From positions 1 to 64,000 of IMG/VR virus record IMGVR_UViG_3300033273_000392: DNA of 64,000 bases. The stretch is one strand, 5' to 3'. This DNA comes from a virus. Both the position numbers and the translations under genes were made by a program. Within the stretch, counting starts at the first letter, position 1. Each line of letters starts with the position of its first letter. Under the pieces are notes generated by a model. That model was not told the origin of the DNA and ran no database searches. It worked only from the letters and a program-made list of their open reading frames with translations. Positions 3,499 through 40,765 of the stretch are shown piece by piece.

Positions 3499-3527
3499 GA
3501 TATAGTTGTTTTACAATCTATATATCG

Positions 3528-5905: not shown

Positions 5906-5932
5906 AAGCTTAGTTTTTCTTTATATATCCGA

Positions 5933-8261: not shown

Positions 8262-8270
8262 AATCTTTGT

Positions 8271-9227
8271 TTATGACCTAACGATTGTTTGAATCTCATA
8301 GACACAGCTAAGCATAGTGATAACTGGATCTATAACGTGAACTCGTTGTGCCTGGTGTTTAGCTACTGAAATAATAATCTGTGGTATATGTTTTACGCTC
8401 GAAGTCTGCTCTTGTTTTATGTATTCTACAAATTCTTCACCTAGCGATTGCAGGATATCGTCGACTCTGTTAGAATAGTTGCTTACGAGCATTTGATAGT
8501 TCTTAGCTGGATCTGTCTCTGTAAATATAAGCAAAAAAACGTCTTTAAATACAGAATTAAATCTTTTAACATCTCCAACTGTGATATTTGTCGTTCCCTG
8601 AGTCTTAAAGCCTTGAAGTTTGTTAAGAGTACTCCTAAGATCTGGAAAGTTTCTACGTACAAACTCAACAAGTGCATCCTTTTCAATGGTAAGGTCTTCT
8701 GCCTTACAGATTTCATACACTCGCTTAATATACTTTTTAGTCAACTCAGACTCTTCTTCCTTATCAAAGTCAAAGTTGATAACTTCAAAACGACTCAAGA
8801 CCGGATCTGGAATCTTATTGATATAGTTACATGTTGCAATAAAGCGACTGTTAGATGCAAACTGTTCCATAGTAGCACGAAGTGCCTTAAAGAACTGATC
8901 AGAAACACCATCAACCTCATCGAGAATAACAACCTTAAATGCACCTGGAGCATCCATAATAGAAACAGTAGAACAGAAGTCAATGATTCTAGTTCTAATA
9001 ACATCAACTGACGTATCTGTAGACGCGTTAATGTACAGATAAGGAAGATTAAACTGATTTACGACTGCCTTTGCAGTTGAGGTTTTACCCGTACCAGGTG
9101 AACCTGCAAACAACATATTTTGCACAAGTCCGTCACTAAACTTAGACATAACCCTATCCGGAAGGATAAGCTCGTCTAGATTCTTTGGTCTGTACTTTTC
9201 GGTAAATAGTTGATTAACGGACTTCAT
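8271..9227 (-). CDS. Clamp loader large subunit (gp44/RFC-like AAA+)
   Basis: EKYRP, GSPGTGKT, ILDEVD, SRF, FPDLR. Start moved to ATG 9227 (MKSVNQLF), downstream of a promoter motif. Confidence 0.95.
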   Translation of the reverse strand: MKSVNQLFTEKYRPKNLDELILPDRVMSKFSDGLVQNMLFAGSPGTGKTSTAKAVVNQFNLPYLYINASTDTSVDVIRTRIIDFCSTVSIMDAPGAFKVVILDEVDGVSDQFFKALRATMEQFASNSRFIATCNYINKIPDPVLSRFEVINFDFDKEEESELTKKYIKRVYEICKAEDLTIEKDALVEFVRRNFPDLRSTLNKLQGFKTQGTTNITVGDVKRFNSVFKDVFLLIFTETDPAKNYQMLVSNYSNRVDDILQSLGEEFVEYIKQEQTSSVKHIPQIIISVAKHQAQRVHVIDPVITMLSCVYEIQTIVRS

Positions 9228-9285
9228 ATTGATGGCTTTGTACTTTATACTAAGATGTTGTGTTTTGTTTAACGATAAATAATTT

Positions 9286-9804
9286 ATGGCCAAGATAATT
9301 ATAGAACGGACAGGTGGACCATACCCGGCTAACAGATACGGAATAATACTAAGAAATCTTAAACGAAGAGACAGGCAGTTTTTAGTAGAACACCGGCATA
9401 TGAAAAAGTGGGCTAATAGCGATCAGTTTGTTGGCTGCGTCTTAAGAATGAAAGAGAATGGAAGGCAAATAGCTGCACGAAAACTCTACTGGGACTTTGA
9501 AAGCTCTTCTGCTGTAAATGGAGATGAACTTGTAAAGCGATATAATACTATAGACTGGGTTTGTGCTATTTCCCTAAAGCCAATCAAGGCCAAGTTTATG
9601 AACTTTGACCTTGATAACTTCGTGCATCCAGAATACAGAGACGTATTAAATGCTCCTATGGTTGACTCTAGAATACTAAAGTCATCAATAGAATTTAGAA
9701 AGGCATGTGAAAAGCTTCTTATAAAGCAACGCGACAAGTTCCTTAAACTAGCTAAAAAAGGATCTAGAAATACGGATAACCTAGATAAGCTTAAAGAAGA
9801 TTAA
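9286..9804 (+). CDS. Hypothetical basic protein (only plus-strand gene)
   Basis: 172 aa ATG ORF filling the gap between two minus-strand genes; its stop overlaps the convergent gene's stop. Confidence 0.7.
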   Translation: MAKIIIERTGGPYPANRYGIILRNLKRRDRQFLVEHRHMKKWANSDQFVGCVLRMKENGRQIAARKLYWDFESSSAVNGDELVKRYNTIDWVCAISLKPIKAKFMNFDLDNFVHPEYRDVLNAPMVDSRILKSSIEFRKACEKLLIKQRDKFLKLAKKGSRNTDNLDKLKED

Positions 9805-11015
9805 GCTTCCATAGACTGAAGCTTCTTTTTAGCGTCAGCTTCTTTTTTCTTTAGTTCCGCAATATCCTCCTTTCTATCTTCTATGTCCTTTTCAATCTTT
9901 TGAATAACATCATCAGATCCTTTTCCTGTACCTTTATCTCTTTTAGCTTGTTCTAAATCAGACTCTAACTTCTTAAGCTCCTTTCTTTCAGTTTCAATAT
10001 TATCGTTATATGCCTTAATATCAGACTCTAACTCAGCTACAGGATCAGACTCTTCCTTAGGTTCTTCCTTAGGTTCTTCCTTAGGCTCGTCTTTTGGTGC
10101 ATCTTCTCCTTTTAGATTAGATATCTTAGAGTCTAATCCGTCTATTTGTTTTTGTATAACTTCTTTTTCTTCATCGTCAGCGTCTTTTAGATCTTTCTCT
10201 AACTTAGACTTACTTTCTTCTGCGTTCTTTATCTGCTCTTCCTTTGGTGTATTTTTAAGAGCTTCAGCAGCTTCGGCCTCTTTTTCTTTAGCCTCTTGCT
10301 CTTCTTTAGAAAGCATCTCCTGATATTTTTTTACGCTATTTTCTAACTCTTCAGCCTCTTTTTCAGATAGCTTTCCTTCTAGCTTTATTTTAGCAACCTT
10401 AACTCTGGTTTCTGCTTTTAAAATAGACAATATCTTTTGTTGTCCTTCATCTGTAAACGCTTCGTCAAGGGTAGATTCTACTTCTTCAGCGTCTTTTATA
10501 AGTTGTTCTTTCTTTTTCTCATATGCTGCTATCTTTGACTTCATAGCATCTCTCTTCTCCTTTTCAACGTCGTATAGAGATATCTCAGAAAGAGCTTTAT
10601 CTATTTTAGCAGCCGTTATTCTGCTTTTTTCAGCAGGGGCATACATCTTCTTTAGCTTTTTCTTCTTTAAAAACTTTTTAAGTAGATAAACCATTCCTCC
10701 GGCTGCTGCAATAGTTCCACCAAGTGCTAACATAGGAAGAGCTGAAAGATCAGCTGCCAAAACCGTAGCTACTACAGACTCGTTAAGGTCTTCAGATTCG
10801 TTAGTAGAATCATCTGACTCTAGATTATCAACAAGGTCATTTAAGTTTGCTATTATAGCATCAATATCAGTTGAAATATCTTTAGATATAGATGCTACGT
10901 CACCAGTAGACGCTGGAGTAGCCTCCGGAGCTTGTGCTTGTGCACTCTCAGTAGAAGCGGCTCTTGAATCATTAAAAGATTCAAACATCATTAGTTTCTT
11001 ATTTAATCTAATCAT
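9801..11015 (-). CDS. Putative internal head protein with a hydrophobic segment and long coiled coil
   Basis: N-terminal LMMFESFN motif, hydrophobic stretch after LNE, K/E-rich coiled coil, late motif upstream. Confidence 0.55.
   Translation of the reverse strand: MIRLNKKLMMFESFNDSRAASTESAQAQAPEATPASTGDVASISKDISTDIDAIIANLNDLVDNLESDDSTNESEDLNESVVATVLAADLSALPMLALGGTIAAAGGMVYLLKKFLKKKKLKKMYAPAEKSRITAAKIDKALSEISLYDVEKEKRDAMKSKIAAYEKKKEQLIKDAEEVESTLDEAFTDEGQQKILSILKAETRVKVAKIKLEGKLSEKEAEELENSVKKYQEMLSKEEQEAKEKEAEAAEALKNTPKEEQIKNAEESKSKLEKDLKDADDEEKEVIQKQIDGLDSKISNLKGEDAPKDEPKEEPKEEPKEESDPVAELESDIKAYNDNIETERKELKKLESDLEQAKRDKGTGKGSDDVIQKIEKDIEDRKEDIAELKKKEADAKKKLQSMEA
10051..10097 (-). repeat. 12-bp tandem repeat encoding (P)KEE/EPKE
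   Basis: tcttccttaggt repeated about 3 times plus a degenerate copy; protein reads PKDEPKEEPKEEPKEE. Confidence 0.8.
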
Positions 11016-28111: not shown

Positions 28112-28298
28112 TGCTATTGTTGTTAAGTATTTGTTTTTCTTTTATTCTCAACTCCTCTAATTGATTCATTAAATCATGAGCTTTATTTCTCAGATTTACC
28201 ATATCACGTTCAATTTCGTTAAGTTCGTTATGGATAGTTTTATACTTCTCCAAAATATTGATTTCTTCAGGACTCATATTAGAATAGTGCTGTAGCAT
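28104..28298 (-). CDS. Small coiled-coil hypothetical protein
   Basis: Heptad-rich ORF between polymerase and uvsX; the true start may be MSPEE. Confidence 0.55.
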   Translation of the reverse strand: MLQHYSNMSPEEINILEKYKTIHNELNEIERDMVNLRNKAHDLMNQLEELRIKEKQILNNNSNG

Positions 28299-29484
28299 AA
28301 ATTAGATTCGTGTCAAGAGTCTGAAGACCGATAGCCTTCAAAACACGGTTAAGAGGATCAATCATACACTTTTCGAACTGTGTGTCATAGTCCACATTAG
28401 GAGCTAACTCATAAGGATGGTCTCCTGGTAGATATGCAAACATCTCACTCAAAGTAGTATCAAGGCTATGATAGATCTTTAGCTTTTCTCCGTTTCCTAT
28501 CAATCTATACTTGTTCTTATATTTCTTGTTTTGATTTAGCAAATAGTTATAGTATCCTGCTGCTTTTACGTTAGGTGGACACTTAAGACCAAACTGCAGT
28601 TCAATCTGATCGTCTACGATATACTTATCGATGTTATTCGTTCTCTTGTTAAACGAAATGTCATCAATATCACACAGCTTAAATTGCTTTTTGGTTTCCT
28701 TCATAAACTGTACAAGCTCCTGTAGATCTTCAGCAGATGGCTTACTCGTGCTCTTAAATAGAATCTTAAGAGCTTCAACAAGTTTTTCTCTAGCAAACTT
28801 AGGCGTAGAAGACTGGATCGTATCAAAACCGATGGTCTTAATCTTCTTTAGAGATGGGTGACGGTCCGTAGTCTCTAGCTTATCATCCCATGCAATATTC
28901 TGAATATACTTCTTCTTGCTCATCCATATGCCATTATATGCAATAGTCTCCAATTCGAAGACAAGGAAGTTATCAGTGTTTCTTACCTTAGCATATTTCT
29001 CCATGCACTTGACAATATAGTCTCTAAGTCTAAACGCGTAAATCTCAAGGATAAACTGGTCAATTGTAAGCTCATCACCGAGCCATTCGATAGAATTATA
29101 CATGTCCTCAAACTGAACATAGCATGAGTCTGTATCGATATAGATTACAGACGGACGTTCTAGCTTGTGCTTTACCTTGATATTGAAGTGGTCGTGTACT
29201 ACTTTATCCTTATAGAAGAACTCGTTAAAGTACTTGTTCAATATCGTTTCAGAATACATGATAGCATTCTGACCCTGTAGTGTAATAGATTCTGCAATAT
29301 CGATATTAAAGAAGTGAAACCACTTATTACCGAATGCACCGTAAATAGAGTTAAGTGTTACCTTAACCGCCTGCTCGTATGCTGTATACTTAGCCGCCTG
29401 TTGCTCATAGTGAGCTATGAGAGCCTTCCCCTCTTCAGGGGAAAGCTCATCTATTTGTTTAGTCTCTAGCTCTTCAATGTTCAT
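28279..29484 (-). CDS. Family B DNA polymerase, C-terminal subunit (fingers/palm/thumb)
   Basis: Motif B KVTLNSIYG, motif C YIDTDS, KKKY, SSTP; no exonuclease or motif A. Confidence 0.93.
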   Translation of the reverse strand: MNIEELETKQIDELSPEEGKALIAHYEQQAAKYTAYEQAVKVTLNSIYGAFGNKWFHFFNIDIAESITLQGQNAIMYSETILNKYFNEFFYKDKVVHDHFNIKVKHKLERPSVIYIDTDSCYVQFEDMYNSIEWLGDELTIDQFILEIYAFRLRDYIVKCMEKYAKVRNTDNFLVFELETIAYNGIWMSKKKYIQNIAWDDKLETTDRHPSLKKIKTIGFDTIQSSTPKFAREKLVEALKILFKSTSKPSAEDLQELVQFMKETKKQFKLCDIDDISFNKRTNNIDKYIVDDQIELQFGLKCPPNVKAAGYYNYLLNQNKKYKNKYRLIGNGEKLKIYHSLDTTLSEMFAYLPGDHPYELAPNVDYDTQFEKCMIDPLNRVLKAIGLQTLDTNLIYATALF

Positions 29485-31061: not shown

Positions 31062-32882
31062 TCAGCCATCGCAACTTAGGCAATCAGGATCTGTAGCTGA
31101 TGACGCGATATCGCCCCTTAATACCGATTCTGTTCGCATATAATAAAGTGTCTTGATTCCCTGGTTGTAAGCTTCTAAGTGTACCTGATTGATAAACTTA
31201 GGAGCTGCCTCTTTAGGGAAGGCAAGATTTAACGATACGGATTGATCCACATACTGTTGCCTCACTCCAGCCTGCTTCACAAGATCCAACTGATTTATCT
31301 CTTTAAAAGTCTTAAATACGTCTGCTAGTGGAATATACTTTTCTCTATCCACGTCAGACATCTTATCTAGCTTATCTTTTTTAATAGGCTTACTAAATTC
31401 ACCGTCAAATGATTCACCGATATGAACATAGTAGTCTCCTATCCAATCCAAGCCCTGTACTGAACCGCCATCTACAAGAATCTGATCCCATGTCTTCTTA
31501 GTATTCTTATTGATAAGATCTAAGACTTTCTCTAGTGATTTGTTTTTTCTAATAAACGTTCCCTTTGCAGTTTGTTCTGTAAATACGTTTGCAGCCCATG
31601 GCTCAATGCCTGGTGATACATTACCGCTAAGCTTAGAATTAGATACAGTAGGTGCAACTGCTCTTAGGTGAGTGTTGCGCATTCCAGTACCAGAGCACCA
31701 TAGAGGTTCACCGTATTCATGTGCCATATCACGGCTTGCCTTTTCACTTTCCGTCTTAATCTGACTAAAGATCTTACGAGTTTCAAACTGAGCAGTAAGC
31801 CCTTCAAAAGGAATGTTACGGTCTTGTAGGTATGTGTGCCATCCAAGAACACCAAGACCCAATGCTCTACCCTTTTCAGCAGATCTTACAGAGTTTTCAA
31901 ACCCACGCATATACTTTGCCTTAGCAATAAACTCTTCAAGAACACCGTCAAGGAACCAAGTTGCAGTATAGATGAGATCTGTGTCTTTCCACTCATCATA
32001 TCTTGCAAGGTTAACTGAACTCAAGCAGCACACAAAAGAATGGGACTCATCTGTATGGAGTGTAATCTCAGAGCAGATGTTGGTCATATAGACCTTTAGC
32101 CCATTCTTTTTATACGCGTCTGGGTTGACGTTATTAACGTTTCCTTTAAACATAATGTATGGTTCTCCAGTTGCTCTGCGCTTTCTTAGAACAGCAGCCC
32201 AGCGCTTTCTGGATTCCTTATCACCCGCCTCAACTCTTTGCATGAAGCTATCAGAGACAACAACACATTGGTGCATATTTAGACATTGGCGGTTTACATC
32301 ACCCTTAGGCTCTCTAATCTCAAGCCATTCCCAAAAGTCACCGTGCTCAATATCAATATTGACCGATGCTGCGCCACGACGAACCGCACCTTGGTTAGTA
32401 GCCAAGATAGATGAATCATAGATTTTACAGAATGGGACAATACCATCTGAGGTTCCATTCTGTGAGATATTAGATCCAGCAGGTCTGATTTGGTTCACCC
32501 CAATACCTACGCCGCCGCCATGCTTAGCAAGTAGCATCATCTCTAGGTTCTTGTTACCGATATCATGAATAGAATCAGCGACGTCGATACCAAAGCAAGA
32601 GATAGGTAGACCTCGTTCTGTACCTGTATTAGAAAGAACAGGAGAAGCTAGGTTTAACCAACCTTTCCAAATGTAGTCGAAAAACTTTGACGCAAGTTCT
32701 GGCTTTTGGAGTCTTTTAGCGATAGCAGTTGCCACGCGCCAATAAGCATCCTTTGGTGTCTCTCCTTCTAAGAGATAGCCACGGCTAATTGTCTTTACGT
32801 AGATCTCGGTGTTACCCCAAGTAGGAAAGTCTACTCCAAGCTCCCAGCCCAATTCTTCGCCATAGTTCATTTCTTCTTCCAT
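31062..32882 (-). CDS. nrdA: Ribonucleotide reductase class Ia alpha subunit
   Basis: ISCF, GGGVG, TNICSEI, CCLSS, APTVSNS, KTLYY, C-terminal CLSC; no N-terminal ATP cone. Confidence 0.96.
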   Translation of the reverse strand: MEEEMNYGEELGWELGVDFPTWGNTEIYVKTISRGYLLEGETPKDAYWRVATAIAKRLQKPELASKFFDYIWKGWLNLASPVLSNTGTERGLPISCFGIDVADSIHDIGNKNLEMMLLAKHGGGVGIGVNQIRPAGSNISQNGTSDGIVPFCKIYDSSILATNQGAVRRGAASVNIDIEHGDFWEWLEIREPKGDVNRQCLNMHQCVVVSDSFMQRVEAGDKESRKRWAAVLRKRRATGEPYIMFKGNVNNVNPDAYKKNGLKVYMTNICSEITLHTDESHSFVCCLSSVNLARYDEWKDTDLIYTATWFLDGVLEEFIAKAKYMRGFENSVRSAEKGRALGLGVLGWHTYLQDRNIPFEGLTAQFETRKIFSQIKTESEKASRDMAHEYGEPLWCSGTGMRNTHLRAVAPTVSNSKLSGNVSPGIEPWAANVFTEQTAKGTFIRKNKSLEKVLDLINKNTKKTWDQILVDGGSVQGLDWIGDYYVHIGESFDGEFSKPIKKDKLDKMSDVDREKYIPLADVFKTFKEINQLDLVKQAGVRQQYVDQSVSLNLAFPKEAAPKFINQVHLEAYNQGIKTLYYMRTESVLRGDIASSATDPDCLSCDG

Positions 32883-32921: not shown

Positions 32922-33920
32922 TTAAAAAATATCGTCCTCGTCCCAGTTCTCGTCTTCTCCAGCCTTAGAATAGTCTGTTGGTCTTACCGCAAAGAAATCT
33001 GTATGTGTATGTCCACCAGTAAGATGGTAGAACCAATCTAGCTGAGAAGCTGATTCATCATCATACTTCATTTTTGGCTCATAGCCAAGCTCTACAAGCT
33101 TCTCATTTGCTCTCTTGATAATAAAGTTCTTTAGGTCTATTGCCTTAAGATTCTCCAGATCTCCCATCTCAAACATCTTCTCAATAAACTTATGTTCCAT
33201 CTGAACCATAAGCTCTGCTGCATGTTCAACTTCTGGTCTCACAAGCTCCTTAAGCTCTGGGTATTCCTCACACATATGACAGAATAGCTGACATCCCATC
33301 TTAGAATGTAGTGACTCGTCTCTAACTGACCACTTCATTTGCTGTCCAATTCCTTTAAGCATGTTTCTCATCTGAAATGAGTACAATACTGCAAATGAAG
33401 AGTATAGTGAAACTCCTTCGGCAAACGCTGAGAAAATAGCTAGAGACCTTGCCACATCCTTACGTGCTCTTGCATCTTTAGATAAATCGTCGTGTGTATA
33501 GTCTGCTTCGGTTGAAGTTAGCATTTCAAACTTCTCTGCAACCGCAGGCTCATGTAAGAATGCTGAGAAATCTTCAAGTCCTAGTGTTTCGTTTAAATAT
33601 GAGTATGCTGTGGCGTGAATAGTCTCTTGAGAGCCAAACATCATAGCCATCTGCTTAATTTCGTGTTTTGGGAACCAGCGAGTAACCATAGTTGTCCAAT
33701 AATCGGAAACTGCACATTCGGTCTGTGCAAAACCCAATAGGATATTACCCACGATGTTCTTTTCATGTGGTAATAACGCCTCGTTCCAATCTTTTACATC
33801 ACCCTGCATTGAGATTTCGGTATGTAACCAAAATGCTTGGGCCTGTTTTAACCATCCTTCTAAGTAATATACGGGGTACTCAAAAGGCTTATATTCAATT
33901 CTTTCTTTAAAAAGTGACAT
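32922..33920 (-). CDS. nrdB: Ribonucleotide reductase beta subunit
   Basis: FW, ETIH..AY, EGVSLY, RDESLH, DFF; likely start MSLFKER at 33920. Confidence 0.96.
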   Translation of the reverse strand: MSLFKERIEYKPFEYPVYYLEGWLKQAQAFWLHTEISMQGDVKDWNEALLPHEKNIVGNILLGFAQTECAVSDYWTTMVTRWFPKHEIKQMAMMFGSQETIHATAYSYLNETLGLEDFSAFLHEPAVAEKFEMLTSTEADYTHDDLSKDARARKDVARSLAIFSAFAEGVSLYSSFAVLYSFQMRNMLKGIGQQMKWSVRDESLHSKMGCQLFCHMCEEYPELKELVRPEVEHAAELMVQMEHKFIEKMFEMGDLENLKAIDLKNFIIKRANEKLVELGYEPKMKYDDESASQLDWFYHLTGGHTHTDFFAVRPTDYSKAGEDENWDEDDIF

Positions 33921-34048
33921 TTTGCTATTATTTTTTACATAAGTCGAAAAACGGCCTATCTCTAGGCCGACATCCAACTCATAATCTAAAAATACTAGCA
34001 GCGCTGCAAGTGATTTATATATTTGAAATGCTGCTTGTAATTTCCAAA

Positions 34049-35452
34049 TTAAGAGTTAAACTTTTTCTTCAATTCCCTAGCTTTTTCGTAAAAATCATAC
34101 GAAGTTTTCTTGTATTGTTTACGCTGGGCATATAGATCTGTTAGAATCTTTCTAAGGATAGAATCCTCTTTTTGATAAACGACACCGTTTTCGCATACTA
34201 TGACATCTTCATCTTTACGACGCGTATTTATCTGGTCCTGAGTTACCATTTCGACGTATGAGTCAGGTGAGATATTAAACTGACGCATGATAGAAGGGTA
34301 TAGGGATGCAAAGTCAAATGCGCTAACTCCGCTATAATATCCTGAGATGGGTTCCTTGACAAATGCACCGGCGTACTTGCCGTCTTTCTTACCATCTTCT
34401 TTATCATACTCAATGCCAACTCGCTTATTCTGTTCAACAAGCTTACGTGCAATGAGTGCTTCAGTAACCGCCACTGGAGATGCTGCCTTATACAATGGCA
34501 TCTTCGTAATAGTGGCTAGCGTAAGAAGAACCTCCATGCTTCTAAGCTTCTCGTCAATATAGTATACAAGAATAGAGTCAACTACGTTATAGAATACGTA
34601 TTTCTTAAAGTCATTCTCATAAAGATCTTGAAGCGATCCTTGATACTTAATCTTCTTTACATTAAGAACCTGACCAGAAACATAGTCGAGTGTATTAGAT
34701 TCCTTTACCTTAACAGAACGATCATACTTATCGTAAAGCTGCATGTAGTCCAAGATTCCCATATGCAATGGACGGCTATCATTACGGTCTAATTCACCGG
34801 TAATTGCCACTTCGCTAAGGTCGATCTGAAGTCTCTTACATCGGTTTACAATATATTGCCAGTCATAGTTAATAAAGTTCCATCCTGTCATCATAGGAAA
34901 CTTAGGAAGGAACTTATGCAAGAAAGTGTACAGCATATTGTACTCGTCCTTAAACTTGTAATAGCTAAACTCCCAGTCTTGATCGTATCCCTCGAAATGT
35001 GCGTTGGTATCTTCCTCGATCTTTTTGATTTGATCAGAAGAAAGATCGTCTAGACCAAGAACAATTGCCTTACGTTCTGGTGTAATAATAGAGAACGTAA
35101 GAATACGGGACTTAGCTTCCTCTGGTTTAGGAAAGCCATCTACGATCTCGGTCTCGATATCGACAAAATATGTTCTAGGGATATTGAACTCAAAGATCTC
35201 GTTACGGTCCTTTTCAGGAAGGCTGTCCATAAAATAGATCAATGAGAACTTATTAAATGCTCTTGATCGATTCTTCTTTACACAACGTCCATCCCAATTT
35301 AGAATTCCCTCTTGGCGATCTCGGTCTTCGTTATTAGTGACAACCCAGTTCTCAAATTGTGAGACTGGATATCTTTTAAAGCTTACCTTACCCTCCCTGT
35401 TATAGTAACTTACAATTACCTCGGAATCTCTCTGCTCAATATCAAGTAGCAT
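34049..35452 (-). CDS. Family B DNA polymerase, N-terminal subunit (3'-5' exonuclease plus motif A)
   Basis: DIET (Exo I), GWN..YD (Exo II), YNVVD (Exo III), YAGAFV, FDFASLYPSIM..NISPD; ends in the fingers helix. Confidence 0.95.
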   Translation of the reverse strand: MLLDIEQRDSEVIVSYYNREGKVSFKRYPVSQFENWVVTNNEDRDRQEGILNWDGRCVKKNRSRAFNKFSLIYFMDSLPEKDRNEIFEFNIPRTYFVDIETEIVDGFPKPEEAKSRILTFSIITPERKAIVLGLDDLSSDQIKKIEEDTNAHFEGYDQDWEFSYYKFKDEYNMLYTFLHKFLPKFPMMTGWNFINYDWQYIVNRCKRLQIDLSEVAITGELDRNDSRPLHMGILDYMQLYDKYDRSVKVKESNTLDYVSGQVLNVKKIKYQGSLQDLYENDFKKYVFYNVVDSILVYYIDEKLRSMEVLLTLATITKMPLYKAASPVAVTEALIARKLVEQNKRVGIEYDKEDGKKDGKYAGAFVKEPISGYYSGVSAFDFASLYPSIMRQFNISPDSYVEMVTQDQINTRRKDEDVIVCENGVVYQKEDSILRKILTDLYAQRKQYKKTSYDFYEKARELKKKFNS

Positions 35453-35916
35453 TAGTATCCGCGGTTTTGGCGATCGTGATTCTCTTCGTTTTTAGCCATA
35501 TATAGATTGACTACATCTTTTGCAGTCATTCCAATTGAAATGGCAAAGTTCATATAGAAATGAAGACCATCAATCCACTCGTAGTAAAGCTCGAGGCGAT
35601 CATCATCGGAAAGGTCTTCGATACGCATATCTTTTGCCTTAACGTTATCCTTTTTCCAGTATTTCCAAGCCGCTGATGCAATACCATCATTAACTCCTCC
35701 AAGTGCATCAAACATTTCATTAAGCTCATCACTCATTGCATGTTTGTTAACACACCAAAAGTCTGCGATTTCTTTAAGAGTCCATCCATCAAAGTTAAAT
35801 CCTAGGCGCTCTTGCAATTCTTTTTGCTTGTTGTAAACCATGCCTAGAGTATCATTTGACTCAGTATAGTAGTCCTTAACTTCTAGATCTGCACATTTAT
35901 TGTCTGCGTTAGCCAT
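35452..35916 (-). CDS. All-alpha dNTP pyrophosphatase (dUTPase/dCTPase, gp56-like)
   Basis: DELNE, WKYWK, EWIDGLHF, Y-x-AKNEEN-x-x-RQ-x-x-GY. Confidence 0.88.
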   Translation of the reverse strand: MANADNKCADLEVKDYYTESNDTLGMVYNKQKELQERLGFNFDGWTLKEIADFWCVNKHAMSDELNEMFDALGGVNDGIASAAWKYWKKDNVKAKDMRIEDLSDDDRLELYYEWIDGLHFYMNFAISIGMTAKDVVNLYMAKNEENHDRQNRGY

Positions 35917-35954
35917 GTGTTTTTGTTTTTTCTATTCGTATTTGTAATATTGTT

Positions 35955-36851
35955 TCACTTATCAGTATCTCTAATCTCTCCCCATTCTCTTTGCGAGTCT
36001 ATTGTCTTTTTAGTCTTTTCAAAATCTGGTTTAGGATCGCCGCCTACATTCCAAAACCAAGCACCTGGAGATCCATGCTTTACCATAAATTCCCATGCCT
36101 TGGCGTCATAGTTAAGCGCAGATGGGAAAGGGGGGAAGAATTCTGAACTTACATTTTGGTTAAACGCTTTTGGGTGGCTCCACATAGTAGCGCGGCCTCT
36201 TTCTCCTTTCTGTATATTACGAGCAACCGCAACCGCATTAAACTTAGTATCTGGCCATGCAATCTGCAATGAGCGTTGCAAGACGCCTGTTGAAATAGCC
36301 GACCATGCCTCTTCAGGATATCCATGATTCTCTGCTAAGTCATAAGCAACCTTTACAGCAGCCGCAGTAACCCACTCGTGCTTAAGGCCGAGGGGGATAA
36401 AAAATGCATTGTTATCTTCTGCCCAATCTTTTGCTATCTTATTTAGGTTAGGCATAGCAGCGATTCTACGGAACTTCATTTCAGCACCACGCTCTACACA
36501 GATTGCCTGGTGATCTGAAATCTCTTTCTGGCTTGGGCTAAAGAGAACAAGCCTCTTATTATACTTCTTGGCTAAATATGCAAGAGAGATACCTGCGAAT
36601 CCATACCTAGGCTGAACATATACCAATGTATCTGACTCTGCCTTTTGTACTAGGATATCTCCGAATCTACACTTTGATCCAAAGCCCATCATATCTTCGC
36701 GCACTACTTTAAATCCATCATGCTCAACGATTTCAGGAGCATCGAATGGATCTTTCCAGTCCCCTGCTAGTTCTAGCCACGCGTCTCTATTAGGGTACAT
36801 AAGGTTTAAGTCCTGATTATACTCGCTTTCTGTATGTTTGTTATGAGCCAT
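35955..36851 (-). CDS. PLP-dependent fold-type II enzyme (ACC deaminase / D-Cys desulfhydrase-like)
   Basis: VVRED..GSKCR (PLP lysine), FIPLG, ISTG, YDAKAW, FWNVG. Confidence 0.75.
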   Translation of the reverse strand: MAHNKHTESEYNQDLNLMYPNRDAWLELAGDWKDPFDAPEIVEHDGFKVVREDMMGFGSKCRFGDILVQKAESDTLVYVQPRYGFAGISLAYLAKKYNKRLVLFSPSQKEISDHQAICVERGAEMKFRRIAAMPNLNKIAKDWAEDNNAFFIPLGLKHEWVTAAAVKVAYDLAENHGYPEEAWSAISTGVLQRSLQIAWPDTKFNAVAVARNIQKGERGRATMWSHPKAFNQNVSSEFFPPFPSALNYDAKAWEFMVKHGSPGAWFWNVGGDPKPDFEKTKKTIDSQREWGEIRDTDK

Positions 36852-38055
36852 ATAGTTCTGATACTTTTTGTTTGTATGATTCTACTGTGAGACCCGCTTC
36901 AGCAATAATCTTGTCATCGCTAGGGTGATGGGTCATACCGTTAAAGGTTTCTACTAGACCGAGATCTAGCATAGCCTTCTGTCTACCAAATGGATGGTCT
37001 TTGATAGTCGATGAGTTCCATAGGCTATCCATATCAATATGCTTATAGTCAGCGCCGGGTCTCATATAGTTTTCAATCCAACGGATAAAGTCACACGCAA
37101 CATCCTCTGCGTTATATGGAAGTGAACCAGTCTCTTCATATATCTTTGTCATCACGGCATCAAGGAATGGTTCTGACTTTTTGCCCTTTCCGCTAACCGG
37201 ATCAGCAAGATATCCAATACATTCCACTGCGTTTGTCCCATAGTAGAACATAGACTCGCGGTTCACATATTCAGGGAACCAATCAGCAATATCAGCTAAG
37301 ACAGCAGCATACTGGAACTTATAAGCTCTAAGGCCATTTTCTTTATTCCAATCAAACATCCATTGTCCGATGTCTCTGAGATTCTTTTTATCTCCCTCTT
37401 CAAGGTAGTTAGCCAAGTCACGAGCTAATCTAGGTGCAAATTCACAAAGGAAATAATCACCGCCTCTCTTATAACGATACTTAGGGCCTTCAAACCCTGC
37501 CATACCAACAAATAAATCTCCCTCTTCAACCGCCGGCGGCTTAGGGAACGCAGGGAACTGATATCCAACAGAAGTATAGAAAGACTTTGTAGCGCCTTTC
37601 ACCTGTTCACACATCTGTTCAATAGTATCGGATTGCCACAAGTCAAATAGGAGTGTGTTATGATATCCGCTAGGCTTAGTAGCATAGTTGATTGCCGATC
37701 CACAAACCCTGTGCAAGATAAACACATATAGCCATTCAGGAAGGCCAAATACATCCTGCTTTCCAGTCCAGTTTGTAGCTACATCTTTTCTTTGTGGCGT
37801 GATAAGACCCTCTTGCATGCGAGACCAATACGGATGGTCTTCTGTCCATCCGTAAAAACAGTCGTTTACAATCTGGCTAAATCCAGCAAACTTACGTTCA
37901 ACCACATCGTAGAGTTCGATATGTTCCATAAGAGGATCGTTCATATCAGATTCCTGATGCGGTATATGTCCTAGATTAGACTTCTTCTGCTGATCTAGAG
38001 CTAAGTTGTAATAACGGATAAACTCGTCATAGTATTTTGTAGTAGTAATATCCAT
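36841..38055 (-). CDS. Divergent alpha-glutamyl/putrescinyl-thymine pyrophosphorylase-like DNA modification transferase
   Basis: Motif order DPL..YDVVER, LHR, F..A.VLAD, YGTNA..CI, AEDVACDFIRW parallels the aGPT-Pplase pattern (DP..F-x-NV-x-R; E-x-x-LCE-x-x-KY) as recalled; the gene neighbourhood fits. Confidence 0.6.
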   Translation of the reverse strand: MDITTTKYYDEFIRYYNLALDQQKKSNLGHIPHQESDMNDPLMEHIELYDVVERKFAGFSQIVNDCFYGWTEDHPYWSRMQEGLITPQRKDVATNWTGKQDVFGLPEWLYVFILHRVCGSAINYATKPSGYHNTLLFDLWQSDTIEQMCEQVKGATKSFYTSVGYQFPAFPKPPAVEEGDLFVGMAGFEGPKYRYKRGGDYFLCEFAPRLARDLANYLEEGDKKNLRDIGQWMFDWNKENGLRAYKFQYAAVLADIADWFPEYVNRESMFYYGTNAVECIGYLADPVSGKGKKSEPFLDAVMTKIYEETGSLPYNAEDVACDFIRWIENYMRPGADYKHIDMDSLWNSSTIKDHPFGRQKAMLDLGLVETFNGMTHHPSDDKIIAEAGLTVESYKQKVSELYGS

Positions 38056-39131
38056 TAAAAAAGAGCTGCTTGAATTTTTGTCTCGCCAAATTTTTTGTTT
38101 TCTTCGTCTTTAATTAAATCCCATCGATAGAACTCACGCGCAATATGTACCGACTTAGGCTTTTCCATAACATCAAATGTAAGTTCGCCTAGACTGTTTT
38201 TGTAACATGCTGGATGTTGCCATGTTTTCCATTCATTCCTAGCGCACATCGATACAACAAGTTCATTAAATTCTTTTACGAGATTAGTTCTTTCTTCCCA
38301 AGTTCCAAAGTAAGGCGTATCTTTATAGTAACCTGTCTTTGGTAGTTTTCTAGATACGTCTTCAATAGGCAAAGCTTGTACTACCTCAATGTCATTAATT
38401 CCTAAGTCTTGTAGCTGTAGCTCATATTCTAGCATCATGCTTTTAAGTGATGAATGTGGATCCTTCTGTCTCATTAGGTGGTGTCTTATATCTATATTAC
38501 CTAAATACACTCGAAGTGAATTAATTCCACTTGGAACATAAGTAGAAATACCACGCTTTAAGGTACCGAAGAGTGTCAATCCATCATTTCTATCACACAT
38601 AAAACCAGGAGTATACTGACTGAATGAATGAGAATCGCCAAAGCAAAGCTTATCTGTCTTTTCAATAAGGTCTACTCGCTTGATTTCTTTACAGATTTTC
38701 TTTGCTTCATCAATAGATGACTCAAGCGTCTTAAACAGATCCGAACCCGTCTTAAGCCTCTTTTCAATAAGAGTACCAACACATGGCATATCATGATGCA
38801 ATGAGTACATGCGAACCTTCTTAAAAAGCCGGTTGACCTGTCGGTACAAGTCATCATTGGCACCTCCAAAGATATTAAAGTTGCCCTTGAATTCCATACC
38901 ATGTTCTAGAAGGATAACGTCATAGTCTTCCCAATTTGTAGTATTATCATTGATAACACTCACACTAGGATAACCAGCATGCCACAATTGATTGCAAAGC
39001 ATATAAGCCCATCCCGCTTTATGCGAAGTGGGCTTAGAACTAAGCTTACCAACAATTGGGCATATACCAATCTTGATTCTAGTGTCAGGCTCGAGATCCG
39101 TAAAGTATACTTTATTGTTCGTATCCGGCAT
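38055..39131 (-). CDS. Two-domain protein with C-terminal SGNH/GDSL-like fold
   Basis: FGDSHS (block I), G (block II), LGNID (block III), SVH (block V). Confidence 0.55.
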   Translation of the reverse strand: MPDTNNKVYFTDLEPDTRIKIGICPIVGKLSSKPTSHKAGWAYMLCNQLWHAGYPSVSVINDNTTNWEDYDVILLEHGMEFKGNFNIFGGANDDLYRQVNRLFKKVRMYSLHHDMPCVGTLIEKRLKTGSDLFKTLESSIDEAKKICKEIKRVDLIEKTDKLCFGDSHSFSQYTPGFMCDRNDGLTLFGTLKRGISTYVPSGINSLRVYLGNIDIRHHLMRQKDPHSSLKSMMLEYELQLQDLGINDIEVVQALPIEDVSRKLPKTGYYKDTPYFGTWEERTNLVKEFNELVVSMCARNEWKTWQHPACYKNSLGELTFDVMEKPKSVHIAREFYRWDLIKDEENKKFGETKIQAALF

Positions 39132-39441
39132 CTGCGTCTGATAGATCTATTGGAGCTTCGTTATCCTTGTAACCGTACTTTTTGATATAGTTATCAAGGC
39201 CACCGATATATGCGACTGCGTCAAGCAAGTTATCTTGTTTGTAGTTATATGAATGTCGGCTAAGCTTAAGGGCAACAAGAGCTGCATACATGTCAGATCC
39301 TGTCCACTCTTTACCTGTCATACCTGAACAAATCATAGCTGCACGGCGCATACCTTCTTCAAAGGGGCCATACATTCTTTCTTTTTCTTCAGATCGATGA
39401 TTAATAATCTGATCAGCGTCTTTAAGAATGTTATTACTCAT
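39112..39441 (-). CDS. DUF6378-like all-alpha nucleotide-modification-associated protein
   Basis: ILKDADQII..R...YG, LKLSR, DNLLDAVAY. Confidence 0.65.
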   Translation of the reverse strand: MSNNILKDADQIINHRSEEKERMYGPFEEGMRRAAMICSGMTGKEWTGSDMYAALVALKLSRHSYNYKQDNLLDAVAYIGGLDNYIKKYGYKDNEAPIDLSDADAGYEQ

Positions 39442-39457
39442 GAGATACTTTTCTTTT

Positions 39458-39485
39458 TTATACTAAAAAGCCGCGAAATGTTTCA
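39458..39485 (-). promoter_or_regulatory. Middle-type bipartite promoter TGAAAC-N15-AGTATAA (representative copy)
   Basis: Related copies at 9245-9272, 19093-19120, 30255-30280 and 50769-50794. Confidence 0.65.
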
Positions 39486-39496: not shown

Positions 39497-39736
39497 TTAA
39501 ACCAACTCTTCTTTGTATAGCTTGGCAATATATTGTTCAAGCATAGCGGCATTGAATCCATCAAGGCTCGCATAGAAGCGCGTCATCGCGCCGTATGGAC
39601 CGGCTAGTTGATATGATTCCGACCACTTTTTAGATAGATGTTCGACCATCATAGGACCCAACTCGCCGTAACAATCCTCGATGAAGTTAGGGGGATAGTT
39701 CATAGCGAACATCACGAAGTCTTTGTATTTCTTCAT
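39497..39736 (-). CDS. Hypothetical early protein
   Basis: 79 aa; ATGA overlap with the upstream small ORF. Confidence 0.7.
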   Translation of the reverse strand: MKKYKDFVMFAMNYPPNFIEDCYGELGPMMVEHLSKKWSESYQLAGPYGAMTRFYASLDGFNAAMLEQYIAKLYKEELV

Positions 39737-39882: not shown

Positions 39883-40281
39883 TTAGTAGCGAAGACCTCC
39901 GATAACAGAAGCAGGGAATTTATAGACCTTTCCAGTGTTGACATTTTCAGCCAAGAGTGGGTACTTTCGAGATCGTGGCTTCAAACCAGTAATCTTGTAA
40001 GTTTCATAACGGAACTCAAAGGTATCGCCGAGCTTATAGCCGTTAATGCCAAAGCTAGACGCATAGCGGTTAAAGTCAGTTGCTTCTTTGGTCATCACAG
40101 TGCCATTCTTTGCAACCGTGGAGATGTTGATCTTAGTAGTGCAGTTTGTTGGTGAGAAACTAGAGTTTCCAACTTCAATCTTAACGCCGTAGCGCTTTGC
40201 GACTTTGGCCAACGCAATTTCGATGTCGTCGGCAATCTGGCGGACCGATGCACGGTCAAGGGAAGAAATAGCTTTACTCAT
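39883..40281 (-). CDS. Hypothetical early protein
   Basis: 132 aa, first gene after a terminator and a host-type promoter. Confidence 0.75.
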   Translation of the reverse strand: MSKAISSLDRASVRQIADDIEIALAKVAKRYGVKIEVGNSSFSPTNCTTKINISTVAKNGTVMTKEATDFNRYASSFGINGYKLGDTFEFRYETYKITGLKPRSRKYPLLAENVNTGKVYKFPASVIGGLRY

Positions 40282-40332: not shown

Positions 40333-40360
40333 AAAAACCCAGACATAAAAATGCCTGGGC
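40332..40360 (-). terminator. Intrinsic terminator
   Basis: CCCAGGCAT-TTTT-ATGTCTGGG-TTTTTT on the minus strand. Confidence 0.8.
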
Positions 40361-40387
40361 TATTAATTTTGTTAAAAATCGTTAAAA

Positions 40388-40765
40388 TTACTTTTCTAGC
40401 CTTTCATTAAGAAACGACTTAAAACTGTAAATGTATTTCATTTCAGAAGTCTCTTCTTCCTCTTCGTCTTCTTTTCTGCCAGCTGGAACATCTCCAGAAC
40501 CGACTTCGCCAGTGTCTGGATTTGGAAAGGCTACTGGACCCATGCCGCTTATCTGTGCTGGAGTTATACCTTCTCCGACCTTATCAGGGAGACCTTCGTG
40601 TTTAGTCTCGGCAAAATCTTTAAGCTGCTTTAAAGTCATATTATCTACAAGATCCTCTACATCATCCCTATAAGATGAATCGACGTCAGAAAGTTGCATA
40701 TCACCGTTTTTGACGGCGTATGCAACTCCCATTAGTCTCTGTTGTGATTTACTTGTACTAGGCAT
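40388..40765 (-). CDS. DUF3008-like protein with C-terminal capsid-targeting-like motif
   Basis: MPSTSKSQQRLMG..MTLKQLKDFAETKHEGLP; C-terminal MKYIYSFKSFLNE. Confidence 0.6.
   Translation of the reverse strand: MPSTSKSQQRLMGVAYAVKNGDMQLSDVDSSYRDDVEDLVDNMTLKQLKDFAETKHEGLPDKVGEGITPAQISGMGPVAFPNPDTGEVGSGDVPAGRKEDEEEEETSEMKYIYSFKSFLNERLEK

What the first reader, a model, noticed from the sequence alone, without database searches (positions are those of the whole stretch)
35452..39485. Candidate new DNA base-hypermodification operon: aGPT-Pplase-like + fold-II PLP enzyme + SGNH protein + two all-alpha nucleotide-pool proteins
Seen: five tightly packed or overlapping genes sit behind one middle-type promoter and read straight into the polymerase N subunit. 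They are DUF6378-like, SGNH-fold (GDS/GNID/SVH), aGPT-Pplase-like, PLP enzyme and dUTPase/dCTPase-like. Established: in phages such as phiW-14, SP10, ViI and M6, aGPT-Pplase-family enzymes transfer amines or amino acids onto phosphorylated hmU in DNA, and PLP enzymes remodel the adduct. Inference: this transferase is very divergent (CDFIRW where I recall CE-x-x-KY). An SGNH-fold partner could acylate or deacylate the adduct, giving a base not yet described, probably for anti-restriction in a Bacteroidota phage. No hmU kinase or dUMP hydroxymethylase is visible in this window.
Basis: partly seen in the sequence, partly recalled or inferred. Interest (0 to 1): 0.85.

Follow-up and report, generated by a model that had tools for sequence, protein, structure and literature searches.

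The report
Kinase-less hydroxymethylcytosine DNA hypermodification cassette
A large uncultured marine T4-like phage carries, just upstream of its DNA polymerase, enzymes related to those that attach amino acids to thymine in other phages. Here they are tied to hydroxymethylcytosine synthesis and have an esterase-fold partner instead of the usual DNA kinase, so the phage DNA probably carries an undescribed decorated cytosine.

Summary
The five minus-strand genes are real, tightly packed, and read into the N-terminal piece of a split family-B polymerase.

- **g1:** DUF6378.
- **g2:** an unresolved N-domain plus an SGNH domain with invariant GDSHS, GN and SVH blocks.
- **g3:** a confident glycosylase-type model. 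Its best solved match is PaMx11 gp46, a glycine:DNA transferase (Z 10.5), and it keeps an invariant E-D-x-x-C like gp46's catalytic E-T-x-x-C.
- **g4:** a fold-II PLP enzyme homologous to M6 gp52, a proven DNA-adduct decarboxylase (hhalign 97.5%).
- **g5:** a T4 gp56-type dCTPase.

g2 and g3 are one polypeptide in seven representative clusters. The g2-g3 fusion plus g4 recurs in an unrelated PolA phage. All 80 fetched close relatives (69-88% identity) keep the cassette or its core.

The genome also has a T4 gp42-type dCMP hydroxymethylase and an ordinary ThyA. No 5-hmU DNA kinase was found, even in a complete 256-kb relative.

The SGNH role is inferred (acyl activation in the kinase's place). 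The "middle promoter" is not supported.

This scan has flagged the same cassette in at least 17 other genomes with the same reading. I found no paper describing it.

The parts
39112..39441 (-). g1, 109 aa, DUF6378 protein; conserved first gene of the cassette, function unknown (possibly an all-alpha nucleotide-binding protein)
   Evidence: Pfam DUF6378 E 2.6e-9, 37.7 bits against a cutoff of 27.1. Present at 76-90% identity directly upstream of g2 in most of the 80 related loci. About 80% column identity among 5 homologues.
38055..39131 (-). g2, 358 aa: small alpha/beta N-domain (about 1-150, unresolved) plus a C-terminal SGNH/GDSL-fold domain (about 157-345) with intact catalytic blocks
   Evidence: AF2 model pLDDT 88.5. 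SGNH esterases and O-acetyltransferases match at Foldseek prob 1.0 and VIA Z 12.8 over residues 154-345. Invariant G165-D-S167-H-S, G211-N212, S327-x-H329, and in the N-domain S36-H37 and G83..N86..G89-G90-x-N92. Fused to g3 in P0158, P0170, P0187, P0198, P0219, P0233 and P0234.
36841..38055 (-). g3, 404 aa: HhH-glycosylase-superfamily, amino acid:DNA transferase (AADT)-like enzyme with invariant E317 and C321 (E-D-V-A-C)
   Evidence: AF2 pLDDT 94.6, pTM 0.92. The best solved match is PaMx11 gp46/PUGT 8z2n: Z 10.5, rmsd 3.8, 210 residues aligned. Queuine-salvage DUF2419, AGOG and OGG follow at Z 7-8.6. BFVD hits are annotated ADDT, Pplase1 or HMUDK_hel. ESM Atlas neighbours carry PF18723 or PF18724 in 11-36% of members. 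Invariant G119, S120, G130, N133, F247, D255, G273, E317 and C321 in 59 homologues. The motif parallels gp46 E243-T244-x-x-C247.
35955..36851 (-). g4, 298 aa: fold-type II PLP enzyme of the M6 gp52 / ViI gp226 kind (DNA-adduct decarboxylase family); predicted Schiff-base Lys60
   Evidence: phrog_7093 E 6e-37; Pfam PALP 20.6 bits, below the cutoff. The family profile hits cysteine synthases at E 2e-5, with K60 aligned to the PLP lysine of S-V-K-C-R. hhalign against M6 gp52: 97.5%, E 8.5e-12, 225 columns, including the C-terminal PFP..YD.KAW..FWN motif. 48% identical to the PALP gene next to a g2-g3 fusion in PolA-phage contig L092.
35452..35916 (-). g5, 154 aa: T4 gp56-type dCTPase/dUTPase (all-alpha NTP pyrophosphohydrolase)
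   Evidence: Pfam dUTPase_2 33.5 bits against a cutoff of 22.9; phrog_173 E 3e-21. tblastn gives 31-40% identity over 86-97% of its length to gp56 genes of T-even phages annotated dCTP pyrophosphatase, including T4.
34049..35452 (-). N-terminal piece of a split family-B DNA polymerase (exonuclease plus start of the polymerase domain), start overlapping the g5 stop by 1 nt
   Evidence: PF03104 and PF00136 profile positions 22-137 of 453. The C-terminal piece is at 29484-28279, profile 147-237 onward.
39458..39485 (-).
   Evidence: Sequence read. It is the only match in the window and is expected by chance (52 of 100 shuffles give at least one).
40336..40361 (-). Strong terminator-like hairpin; probable upstream limit of the transcription unit
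   Evidence: 11-bp stem, 5 GC pairs, T-run. The next minus-strand terminator-like site is at 33969-33952.

Best explanation
The cassette is a post-replicative DNA hypermodification pathway that most likely acts on 5-hydroxymethylcytosine (5hmC). Step 1: g5, a gp56-type dCTPase, removes dCTP. A gp42-type dCMP hydroxymethylase encoded elsewhere on the contig makes 5hm-dCMP, so the polymerase lays down 5hmC. This step rests on homology and diagnostic residues. Step 2: g2 acts on 5hmC in DNA in the place taken by the 5-hmU DNA kinase in known pathways. My committed guess is O-acylation of the 5-CH2OH through an acyl-Ser167 intermediate, which makes a carboxylate leaving group. This step is inferred. 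Step 3: g3 flips the base. Cys321 attacks C6, the leaving group departs, and an amino acid (or amine) adds to the exocyclic methylene, as proposed for PaMx11 gp46. This step is inferred from fold and motif. Step 4: g4 forms a Schiff base through Lys60 with the free alpha-amine of the adduct and decarboxylates it, as M6 gp52 and ViI gp226 do. No radical-SAM isomerase is present, so the ViI-type route is the closest model: side-chain-linked serine converted to an aminoethoxymethyl group. That predicts a 5-(aminoalkyl-X-methyl)cytosine. This step is inferred from homology. The likely benefit is protection of phage DNA from restriction and other nucleases.
For: g3 fold: model pLDDT 94.6. The top solved match is the glycine:DNA transferase 8z2n, Z 10.5, followed only by HhH-GPD enzymes. 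BFVD and Atlas neighbours are annotated ADDT or HMUDK_hel. E317 and C321 are invariant in 59 homologues. The paralogue gX in relatives has the same motif, E-D-K-T-C. It matches the Ca-binding Glu243/Thr244 and proposed C6-attacking Cys247 of gp46 (PMC11472151). g4 is homologous to the biochemically proven decarboxylase M6 gp52 (97.5%, E 8.5e-12; activity in PMC8989533), and its PLP lysine is aligned. The g4 family is fused or adjacent to DNA methyltransferase domains in Erythrobacter and Microcystis phages. Linkage: g2 and g3 form one polypeptide in 7 representative clusters. The g2-g3 fusion plus g4 sits in an unrelated PolA phage, with a ThyA homologue, a MazG-like gene and a dNMP-kinase-like gene 4-6 kb upstream. 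The gene order g1-g2-g3-(gX, LOG)-g4-(GT2+UGM)-g5-PolB holds in 80 IMG/VR loci, and a rearranged g3-gX-g4-g2 core without g1, g5 or PolB occurs in six of them. Target base: the hydroxymethylases of this contig, of L092 and of the complete relative G001 all have Cys148, Asp171 and Asp179 as in T4 gp42 (criteria from PMC13326640). The contig keeps a canonical Asn-type ThyA. g5 resembles T4 gp56. No kinase: there is no HMUDK_hel match and no PaMx11 gp49-like match in this contig or in the complete 256-kb relative. Aeromonas phage 31 has a gp42 orthologue (55% identity) and a 795-aa protein made of a g2-like half plus a weak HMUDK_hel-like C-terminus. That is the kinase's architecture with the kinase replaced.
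Against: No chemistry was measured. g3 fails the Pfam ADDT and HMUDK_hel models, and hhalign against a gp46-family profile is not significant. A Z of 10.5 lies within the range that all-helical models can reach by chance (note). The C321/C247 equivalence rests on motif and alignment ranges, not on a residue-level superposition. The own contig is only 43% complete, so a kinase could lie in the missing part; absence is shown only in the relative G001 and only at HMMER/BLAST sensitivity. The acyl-activation role of g2 has no direct support: SGNH enzymes are mostly hydrolases, the acyl donor is unknown, and the N-domain is unassigned. gp56 homologues also occur in T4-like phages without hmC. Some g2-g3 contexts (L088) show no PLP gene within 7 kb.
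Confidence: 0.6

Rival explanations
1. One reading: the cassette hypermodifies thymidine through 5-hmU, and the kinase and dUMP hydroxymethylase lie in the unsequenced part of the genome.
For: All characterised AADT and gp52-type enzymes act on hmU-derived bases (PMC8989533). The contig is only 43% complete.
Against: The only hydroxymethylase-type ThyA homologue here, in L092 and in the complete relative G001 has Asp at the Ec-N177 position, which marks dCMP specificity. A canonical ThyA is kept, which works against replacing T. G001 is complete and has no HMUDK_hel or gp49-like kinase. g5 is gp56-like.
Confidence: 0.1
2. The target base (5hmC) and the transferase and decarboxylase steps are as in the best explanation, but g2 is a late tailoring or editing enzyme that acylates or deacylates the finished adduct. 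Activation of 5hmC is done some other way, for example by an unrecognised kinase or by direct displacement within g3.
For: SGNH enzymes are typically esterases or acyltransferases acting on finished substrates. PaMx11 ends its pathway with an acetyltransferase (PMC11472151).
Against: g2 is the partner most tightly tied to g3: it is fused in 7 clusters and is present where g4 is absent (L088, and the Aeromonas fusions that lack g3 and g4). A late tailoring enzyme would be expected to be the most dispensable part. No alternative activating enzyme was found.
Confidence: 0.2
3. g4 works as a beta-replacement enzyme like its nearest solved relatives, the cysteine synthases. It would add an aminoacrylate derived from O-acetylserine or serine onto the 5-CH2OH of 5hmC. 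g2 would handle the O-acetyl chemistry, and g3 would serve mainly as the DNA-binding, base-flipping subunit.
For: The g4 profile hits O-acetylserine sulfhydrylases best among solved structures (E 2e-5). SGNH enzymes process O-acetyl esters. g3 is fused to g2, as a targeting domain might be.
Against: g4 is far closer to M6 gp52, a proven decarboxylase (E 8.5e-12), than to any cysteine synthase. The invariant E..C motif in g3 and in its paralogue argues for catalysis rather than mere binding.
Confidence: 0.05
4. The genes are not a DNA modification system. They would be nucleotide or amino-acid metabolism genes, or DNA repair genes (a glycosylase, an esterase, a cysteine-synthase-like enzyme), that happen to sit in the replication module.
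For: No Pfam model above threshold covers g2, g3 or g4. The g3 fold also resembles the repair glycosylases AGOG and OGG at Z about 8.
Against: The same trio moves as a unit between unrelated phages and fuses. g4 is specifically homologous to a DNA-adduct decarboxylase. The trio co-occurs with gp42-type and gp56-type genes. Relatives insert DNA-glycosylation-type genes (GT2 plus UDP-galactopyranose mutase) inside the cassette.
Confidence: 0.05

Closest known systems
Thymidine hypermodification pathway of Salmonella phage ViI (5-HMUDK gp67/gp243, serine:DNA transferase gp247, PLP decarboxylase gp226 -> 5-(2-aminoethoxy)methyl-dU)
   Same: A glycosylase-fold transferase plus a fold-II PLP enzyme with no radical-SAM isomerase. 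A ThyA-family hydroxymethylase supplies the 5-CH2OH handle, and the chemistry on DNA is post-replicative (PMC8989533).
   Different: Here the hydroxymethylase is dCMP-type (Asp179). No 5-hmU DNA kinase is found. A two-domain SGNH protein is the obligate partner. g3 falls outside the Pfam ADDT model.
Pseudomonas phage PaMx11 gp46 / PUGT (5-PmdU glycinyltransferase, PDB 8z2n) and M6 gp51-gp52
   Same: gp46 is the best solved structural match of g3 (Z 10.5). Both share an E-[TD]-x-x-C motif near the end of the domain. M6 gp52 is a demonstrable homologue of g4 (E 8.5e-12).
   Different: g3 is about 110 residues longer, with only about 7% identity to gp46 and no significant profile-profile match. 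PaMx11 and M6 use a P-loop kinase and FAD, acetyltransferase or radical-SAM partners that are absent here. Their substrate is phosphorylated hmU.
T-even phage 5hmC pathway (gp56 dCTPase, gp42 dCMP hydroxymethylase, alpha/beta-glucosyltransferases)
   Same: There is a gp56-type gene inside the cassette and a gp42-type gene on the contig with the same diagnostic residues. The replication module is T4-like.
   Different: No T4-type glucosyltransferase is detected. The g2-g3-g4 set takes the place of the sugar-adding enzymes. Only a weak, non-significant resemblance links the g2 N-domain to the BGT N-terminal half.
5-hydroxymethylcytosine carbamoyltransferase system (5cmdC; MetaGPA study, PMC8670742)
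   Same: It is another non-sugar decoration of 5hmC, found in environmental phages and associated with ThyA-family and MazG/PRA-PH genes.
   Different: The enzyme family is entirely different (TobZ-like carbamoyltransferase). That paper does not mention PALP, Pplase or SGNH domains.

Membership tests
Amino acid:DNA transferase (AADT / Pfam ADDT PF18724, formerly aGPT-Pplase) | Sequence match to the family model (PF18724, or the related PF18723 helical domain) | tested here: not met
   g3 has no hit at E<=0.1. The whole contig has none. Only 1 of 59 homologues hits ADDT, at E 0.001. hhalign of the g3 family against the gp46 family gives probability 1.4%.
Amino acid:DNA transferase (AADT / Pfam ADDT PF18724, formerly aGPT-Pplase) | HhH-glycosylase-derived two-helix-bundle fold like PUGT (8z2n) | tested here: met
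   Model pLDDT 94.6. 8z2n is the top match: Z 10.5, rmsd 3.8, 210 residues, model 10-336 against chain 8-268. All following hits are HhH-GPD enzymes. Foldseek BFVD hits include ADDT, Pplase1 and HMUDK_hel proteins. Caveat: helical models can reach this Z by chance.
Amino acid:DNA transferase (AADT / Pfam ADDT PF18724, formerly aGPT-Pplase) | Catalytic Cys (gp46 C247) with a metal-binding Glu four residues upstream (E243-T244) | tested here: inconclusive
   E317-D318-x-x-C321 is invariant in 59 homologues and is kept as E-D-K-T-C in paralogue gX. An alternative hhalign path aligns it to E-T-I-L-C of gp46, but without significance. No residue-level structural superposition was available.
Amino acid:DNA transferase (AADT / Pfam ADDT PF18724, formerly aGPT-Pplase) | Works downstream of a 5-hmU DNA kinase (5-HMUDK) encoded by the same phage | tested here: not met
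   There is no HMUDK_hel match and no PaMx11 gp49-like kinase in the contig or in the complete relative G001.
Amino acid:DNA transferase (AADT / Pfam ADDT PF18724, formerly aGPT-Pplase) | Transfers an amino acid or amine onto an activated 5-methylene of a pyrimidine in DNA | not testable with these tools
   This needs biochemistry.
PLP-dependent DNA-adduct decarboxylases (M6 gp52 / ViI gp226) | Homology to a biochemically validated member | tested here: met
   hhalign of the g4 family against M6 gp52: 97.5%, E 8.5e-12, 225 columns. gp52 activity is reported in PMC8989533.
PLP-dependent DNA-adduct decarboxylases (M6 gp52 / ViI gp226) | Fold-type II PLP enzyme with a Schiff-base lysine | tested here: met
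   K60 (G-S-K-C-R) is invariant in 12 homologues and aligns to the PLP lysine of cysteine synthase. The window protein is below the Pfam PALP cutoff (20.6 against 35 bits). The Erythrobacter phage homologue is above it (40.6).
SGNH/GDSL hydrolase-acyltransferase superfamily | SGNH fold with block I Ser, block II/III Gly and Asn, block V His | tested here: met
   Z 12.8 over residues 154-339 and Foldseek prob 1.0. S167, G211, N212 and H329 are invariant. Pfam Lipase_GDSL is hit only weakly, in 8 of 24 homologues.
T4 gp56 dCTPase/dUTPase (Pfam dUTPase_2) | Family model above cutoff and similarity to T-even gp56 | tested here: met
   33.5 bits against a cutoff of 22.9. 31-40% identity to gp56 genes, including T4. 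Substrate preference was not tested.
T4 gp42-type dCMP hydroxymethylase (gene at contig 128116-128979, outside the window) | Catalytic Cys148; Asp at Ec-N177 (dCMP specificity); Asp kept at Ec-D169 (not a 5-hydroxy-dCMP synthase) | tested here: met
   Alignments; criteria from PMC13326640. 31.7% identity to T4 gp42.
T4 beta-glucosyltransferase acceptor (N-terminal) domain, for the g2 N-domain | Detectable homology of g2 residues 1-150 to the BGT N-terminal half | tested here: inconclusive
   hhalign aligns g2 47-92 to BGT 28-76, including the N-x-F-G-G string, but at probability 1.5%. One fusion hits PF09198 at E 0.078. The Atlas search of residues 1-155 gave nothing. The domain was not folded on its own.

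The most novel reading that the evidence does not exclude
An SGNH-fold enzyme O-acylates 5-hydroxymethylcytosine in DNA, replacing the ATP-dependent 5-hm-pyrimidine DNA kinase as the activating step. A divergent Cys-dependent AADT-like transferase and a gp52-type PLP decarboxylase then build an amino-acid-derived 5-substituted cytosine. This would be a new class of cytosine hypermodification, made by a new activation chemistry, and widespread in abundant marine T4-like and other phages.
Probability: 0.3. Interest if true: 0.9.

Novelty: new variant of a known kind. Interest (0 to 1): 0.8.

Why it matters
Amino-acid-type DNA hypermodification is so far known only for thymine, and always through a DNA kinase. 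This cassette would extend it to cytosine and would point to a second, kinase-free way of activating a hydroxymethyl pyrimidine in DNA. The proteins are abundant and well conserved. The searches returned 932 homologues of g3 and 629 of g2, with 69-88% identity among marine metagenome copies. An undescribed base may therefore be common in ocean viral DNA. That would affect sequencing and amplification of such DNA, restriction and CRISPR evasion, and the enzyme toolbox for DNA labelling. Cultured Aeromonas phages 31 and 44RR2.8t carry a gp42 orthologue and a g2-like fusion protein, so part of the idea can be tested directly at the bench.

Tried and rejected
- **Sequence searches that found nothing useful.** Pfam and NCBIfam gave nothing for g2 and g3. 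phmmer and profile searches of g3 against PDB sequences found nothing. tblastn of g3 and of a distant homologue against 50,697 phage records found no match, so no cultured phage in that set has g3.
- **g3 against the gp46 family.** hhalign of the g3 family against gp46 alone or against a 31-member gp46 family alignment was not significant. Its top-scoring local path aligned the gp46 catalytic motif to g3 residues 222-238 instead of C321.
- **Other dead ends.** A Pfam scan of nine distant g3 homologues gave no ADDT coordinates. The C-terminal half of Aeromonas phage 31 ORF233c is not detectably a g3 homologue and only weakly HMUDK_hel-like. PHROGs could not tell hydroxymethylase from thymidylate synthase.
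- **5-hydroxy-dCMP synthase reading:** rejected, because Asp is kept at the Ec-D169 position.
- **Promoter:** the TGAAAC...TATAA motif is at chance level, and no sigma-70-like site lies upstream of g1.
- **g2 N-domain:** the Atlas search was empty, and the link to T4 BGT is not significant.
- **Literature:** I found no paper describing this gene set.

Full report
**What is there.** The window is the first 64 kb of a 149-kb IMG/VR phage contig estimated at 43% complete. Nearly all genes are on the minus strand. The finding covers five ORFs:

- g1: 39441-39112, 109 aa
- g2: 39131-38055, 358 aa
- g3: 38055-36841, 404 aa
- g4: 36851-35955, 298 aa
- g5: 35916-35452, 154 aa

They overlap by 20, 1 and 11 nt or are 38 nt apart, and the g5 stop overlaps the start of a 467-aa ORF. 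That ORF is the exonuclease plus first polymerase segment of a family-B polymerase. The rest of the polymerase is a separate 401-aa ORF at 29484-28279, with both ribonucleotide reductase subunits among the genes in between. A strong terminator-like hairpin lies upstream at 40361-40336. No further minus-strand terminator-like site occurs before 33969, which fits read-through into the polymerase.

The "middle-type promoter" is a single TGAAAC-N17-TATAA string at 39485-39458. It occurs once in 64 kb, and 52 of 100 shuffles give at least one match. I could not support it.

**The individual proteins.**

- **g1** is a DUF6378 protein (E 2.6e-9). I have no functional evidence for it beyond conserved position.
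- **g5** passes Pfam dUTPase_2. It is 31-40% identical over most of its length to the gp56 dCTPase/dUTPase of T-even phages, including T4.
- **g4** is below the Pfam PALP cutoff. A 12-member family alignment has an invariant Lys60 in G-S-K-C-R. The family profile hits cysteine synthases, with that lysine on the PLP lysine. The family is also homologous to M6 gp52 (hhalign 97.5%, E 8.5e-12, 225 columns, including a distinctive C-terminal motif). M6 gp52 and ViI gp226 are the PLP enzymes shown to decarboxylate amino acids already attached to thymine in DNA (PMC8989533). In Erythrobacter phage vB_EliS_R6L the same PLP domain is fused to an N6/N4 DNA methyltransferase domain. In Microcystis phage Mae-JY30 it follows such a methyltransferase gene. 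Both fit DNA as the substrate of this PLP family.
- **g3** has no Pfam, NCBIfam, PHROG or PDB-sequence match. It has 932 metagenomic homologues and 143 representative clusters. An AlphaFold model from 59 diverse homologues is confident (pLDDT 94.6, pTM 0.92).
  - Foldseek against PDB gives only weak rows, but these include MutY, OGG and 8z2n.
  - VIA-align re-scoring puts PaMx11 gp46/PUGT, the 5-phosphomethyl-dU glycinyltransferase, first: Z 10.5, rmsd 3.8, 210 residues. A queuine-salvage HhH enzyme, AGOG and OGG follow at Z 7-8.6.
  - Viral predicted structures annotated ADDT, Pplase1 and 5-hmdU-kinase helical domain appear too.
  - ESM Atlas neighbours carry PF18723 or PF18724 in 11-36% of members.
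  - The family has nine invariant residues, including E317 and C321 in E-D-V-A-C. In gp46, Glu243 and Thr244 hold the metal at O4 of the flipped base, and Cys247 is proposed to attack C6 (PMC11472151). Its sequence there is E-T-I-L-C.
  - The spacing, the position near the end of the aligned range, and a colinear alternative hhalign path agree. No sequence comparison with the gp46 family is significant.
  - My conclusion: same superfamily and probably the same catalytic device, but a separate family.
- **g2** models well (pLDDT 88.5). Residues about 157-345 are an SGNH fold (Foldseek prob 1.0; Z up to 12.8, against esterases and the peptidoglycan O-acetyltransferases PatB and OatA). GDSHS, GN and S-x-H are invariant. 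The first 150 residues form a small alpha/beta domain with its own invariant S-H and F-N-x-F-G-G-x-N motifs. A resemblance to the N-terminal half of T4 beta-glucosyltransferase is only a hint.

**Linkage.**

- All seven long representative clusters among the g3 homologues are g2-g3 fusions in that order.
- In 80 IMG/VR loci with g3 at 69-88% identity the order is g1-g2-g3-g4-g5-PolB-N.
- Optional inserts occur in relatives:
  - A 325-379-aa protein, gX, lies between g3 and g4. It is a g3 paralogue (hhalign 93.5%, E 2.3e-7) with the same E-D-x-x-C motif. Characterised thymidine systems also often have paralogous transferase pairs.
  - A LOG/SLOG-family protein.
  - A GT2 glycosyltransferase plus a UDP-galactopyranose mutase between g4 and g5.
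- Six loci have a rearranged g3-gX-g4-g2 core next to UvsX-like and DnaB-like genes, without g1, g5 or PolB.
- In an unrelated PolA-type phage contig (L092), a g2-g3 fusion is followed at once by a g4 homologue (48% identity). A MazG-like gene, a dNMP-kinase-like gene and a ThyA homologue lie 4-6 kb upstream.
- g2-g3 is therefore the tightest pair and g4 the usual third member.

- The contig has two ThyA-family genes outside the window. One is a canonical ThyA (312 bits) with Asn at the Ec-N177 position. The other is a divergent 287-aa protein, 32% identical to T4 gp42.
- The 287-aa protein has the catalytic Cys and Asp at the N177 position, which marks dCMP specificity. It keeps Asp at the D169 position, so it is not a 5-hydroxy-dCMP synthase by the published D169N marker.
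- The ThyA homologue of L092 shows the same three residues. So does that of G001, a complete 256-kb relative with terminal repeats.
- With the gp56-type g5, this is the T4 route to 5hmC DNA.
- No HMUDK helical domain, no PaMx11 gp49-like kinase and no T4 glucosyltransferase domain is found in the contig or in G001.

**Mechanism.** The parts shown by homology are 5hmC supply (gp56-like and gp42-like genes) and a gp52-type PLP enzyme. The parts inferred from fold and motif are a Cys-dependent AADT-like transfer by g3 (and by gX where present).

The inferred role of g2 is that it stands where the kinase stands. It is fused to the transferase. In Aeromonas phages 31 and 44RR2.8t, a g2-like half is joined to a weakly HMUDK_hel-like C-terminus (E 0.0036). 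That is the architecture of the DNA kinase with the kinase domain swapped. Aeromonas phage 31 also has a gp42 orthologue (55% identity, same diagnostic residues). An SGNH acyl-enzyme could esterify the 5-CH2OH and provide a carboxylate leaving group. This is my preferred guess, but it is only a guess.

No radical-SAM isomerase is present, so the PLP step needs a free alpha-amine. ViI (side-chain-linked serine, then decarboxylation) is therefore the best model for the product type.

**Novelty and context.** I found no paper describing this gene set. The cytosine decorations met in the papers read or listed here use other enzymes: glucose on 5hmC, arabinose on 5-hydroxycytosine, carbamoyl on 5hmC, TET-dependent glycans, and carboxymethylcytosine derivatives.

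The scan's own notebook shows the same cassette flagged in at least 17 other genomes, with follow-up reports reaching the same "kinase-less hydroxymethylcytosine" reading. My analysis was done before I read those notes and agrees with them. They are not independent evidence.

I rate this a new variant of a known kind: known transferase and decarboxylase logic, with a new base and a new partner in the kinase's place. Interest is high but untested by chemistry.

Noticed in passing
window 28279-29484 and 34049-35452 (minus strand): The family-B DNA polymerase is split into two ORFs about 4.6 kb apart. The genes in between include both ribonucleotide reductase subunits (32922-33977 small, 31062-32882 large).
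   Followed up: partly
own contig 128116-128979, 131521-132717 and 132729-133790 (outside the window; loci L002, L003): A gp42-type dCMP hydroxymethylase, a GT2 glycosyltransferase and a canonical ThyA with a roughly 90-residue insertion lie close together. The GT2 could be a further DNA or virion glycosylation enzyme.
   Followed up: partly
L015:8212-9300, L027:8206-9333, L065:8224-9276, L032:8212-9351, L034:3861-4838: Many relatives carry an extra 325-379-aa gene (gX) between g3 and g4. It is a distant g3 paralogue with the same E-D-x-x-C motif. It is absent from this contig.
   Followed up: yes
L027:9345-10016 and L024:8206-8877; L065:10143-12423: Relatives insert variable genes inside the cassette: a LOG/'lysine decarboxylase'-family (SLOG) protein, and a GT2 glycosyltransferase plus a UDP-galactopyranose mutase. 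This suggests lineage-specific elaboration of the modification.
   Followed up: partly
L004 (Aeromonas phage 31, AY962392) 3396-7376: ORF233c (795 aa) joins a g2-like half to a weakly HMUDK_hel-like C-terminus and lies directly downstream of a phage-encoded sodium:solute symporter. The phage also has a gp42 orthologue. These cultured phages could show what the g2 module does to 5hmC.
   Followed up: partly
L005 (Erythrobacter phage vB_EliS_R6L gp1) and L006:5105-6696 (Microcystis phage Mae-JY30): Homologues of the g4 PLP domain are fused to, or directly follow, an N6/N4 DNA methyltransferase domain and are annotated 'DNA modification methylase'. This may be a different PLP-dependent DNA modification.
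   Followed up: partly
L092 (ENA metagenome contig) 1860-3576 and 8001-10933: A PolA-type phage unrelated to T4 carries MazG-like, dNMP-kinase-like and gp42-type genes, plus a g2-g3 fusion and a g4 homologue. The cassette therefore moves between phage lineages.
   Followed up: yes
window 40388-40765 (minus strand): A 125-aa DUF3008 protein lies upstream of the terminator that bounds the cassette's transcription unit. Two small ORFs with no family match (39883-40281, 39497-39736) lie between that terminator and g1.
   Followed up: no
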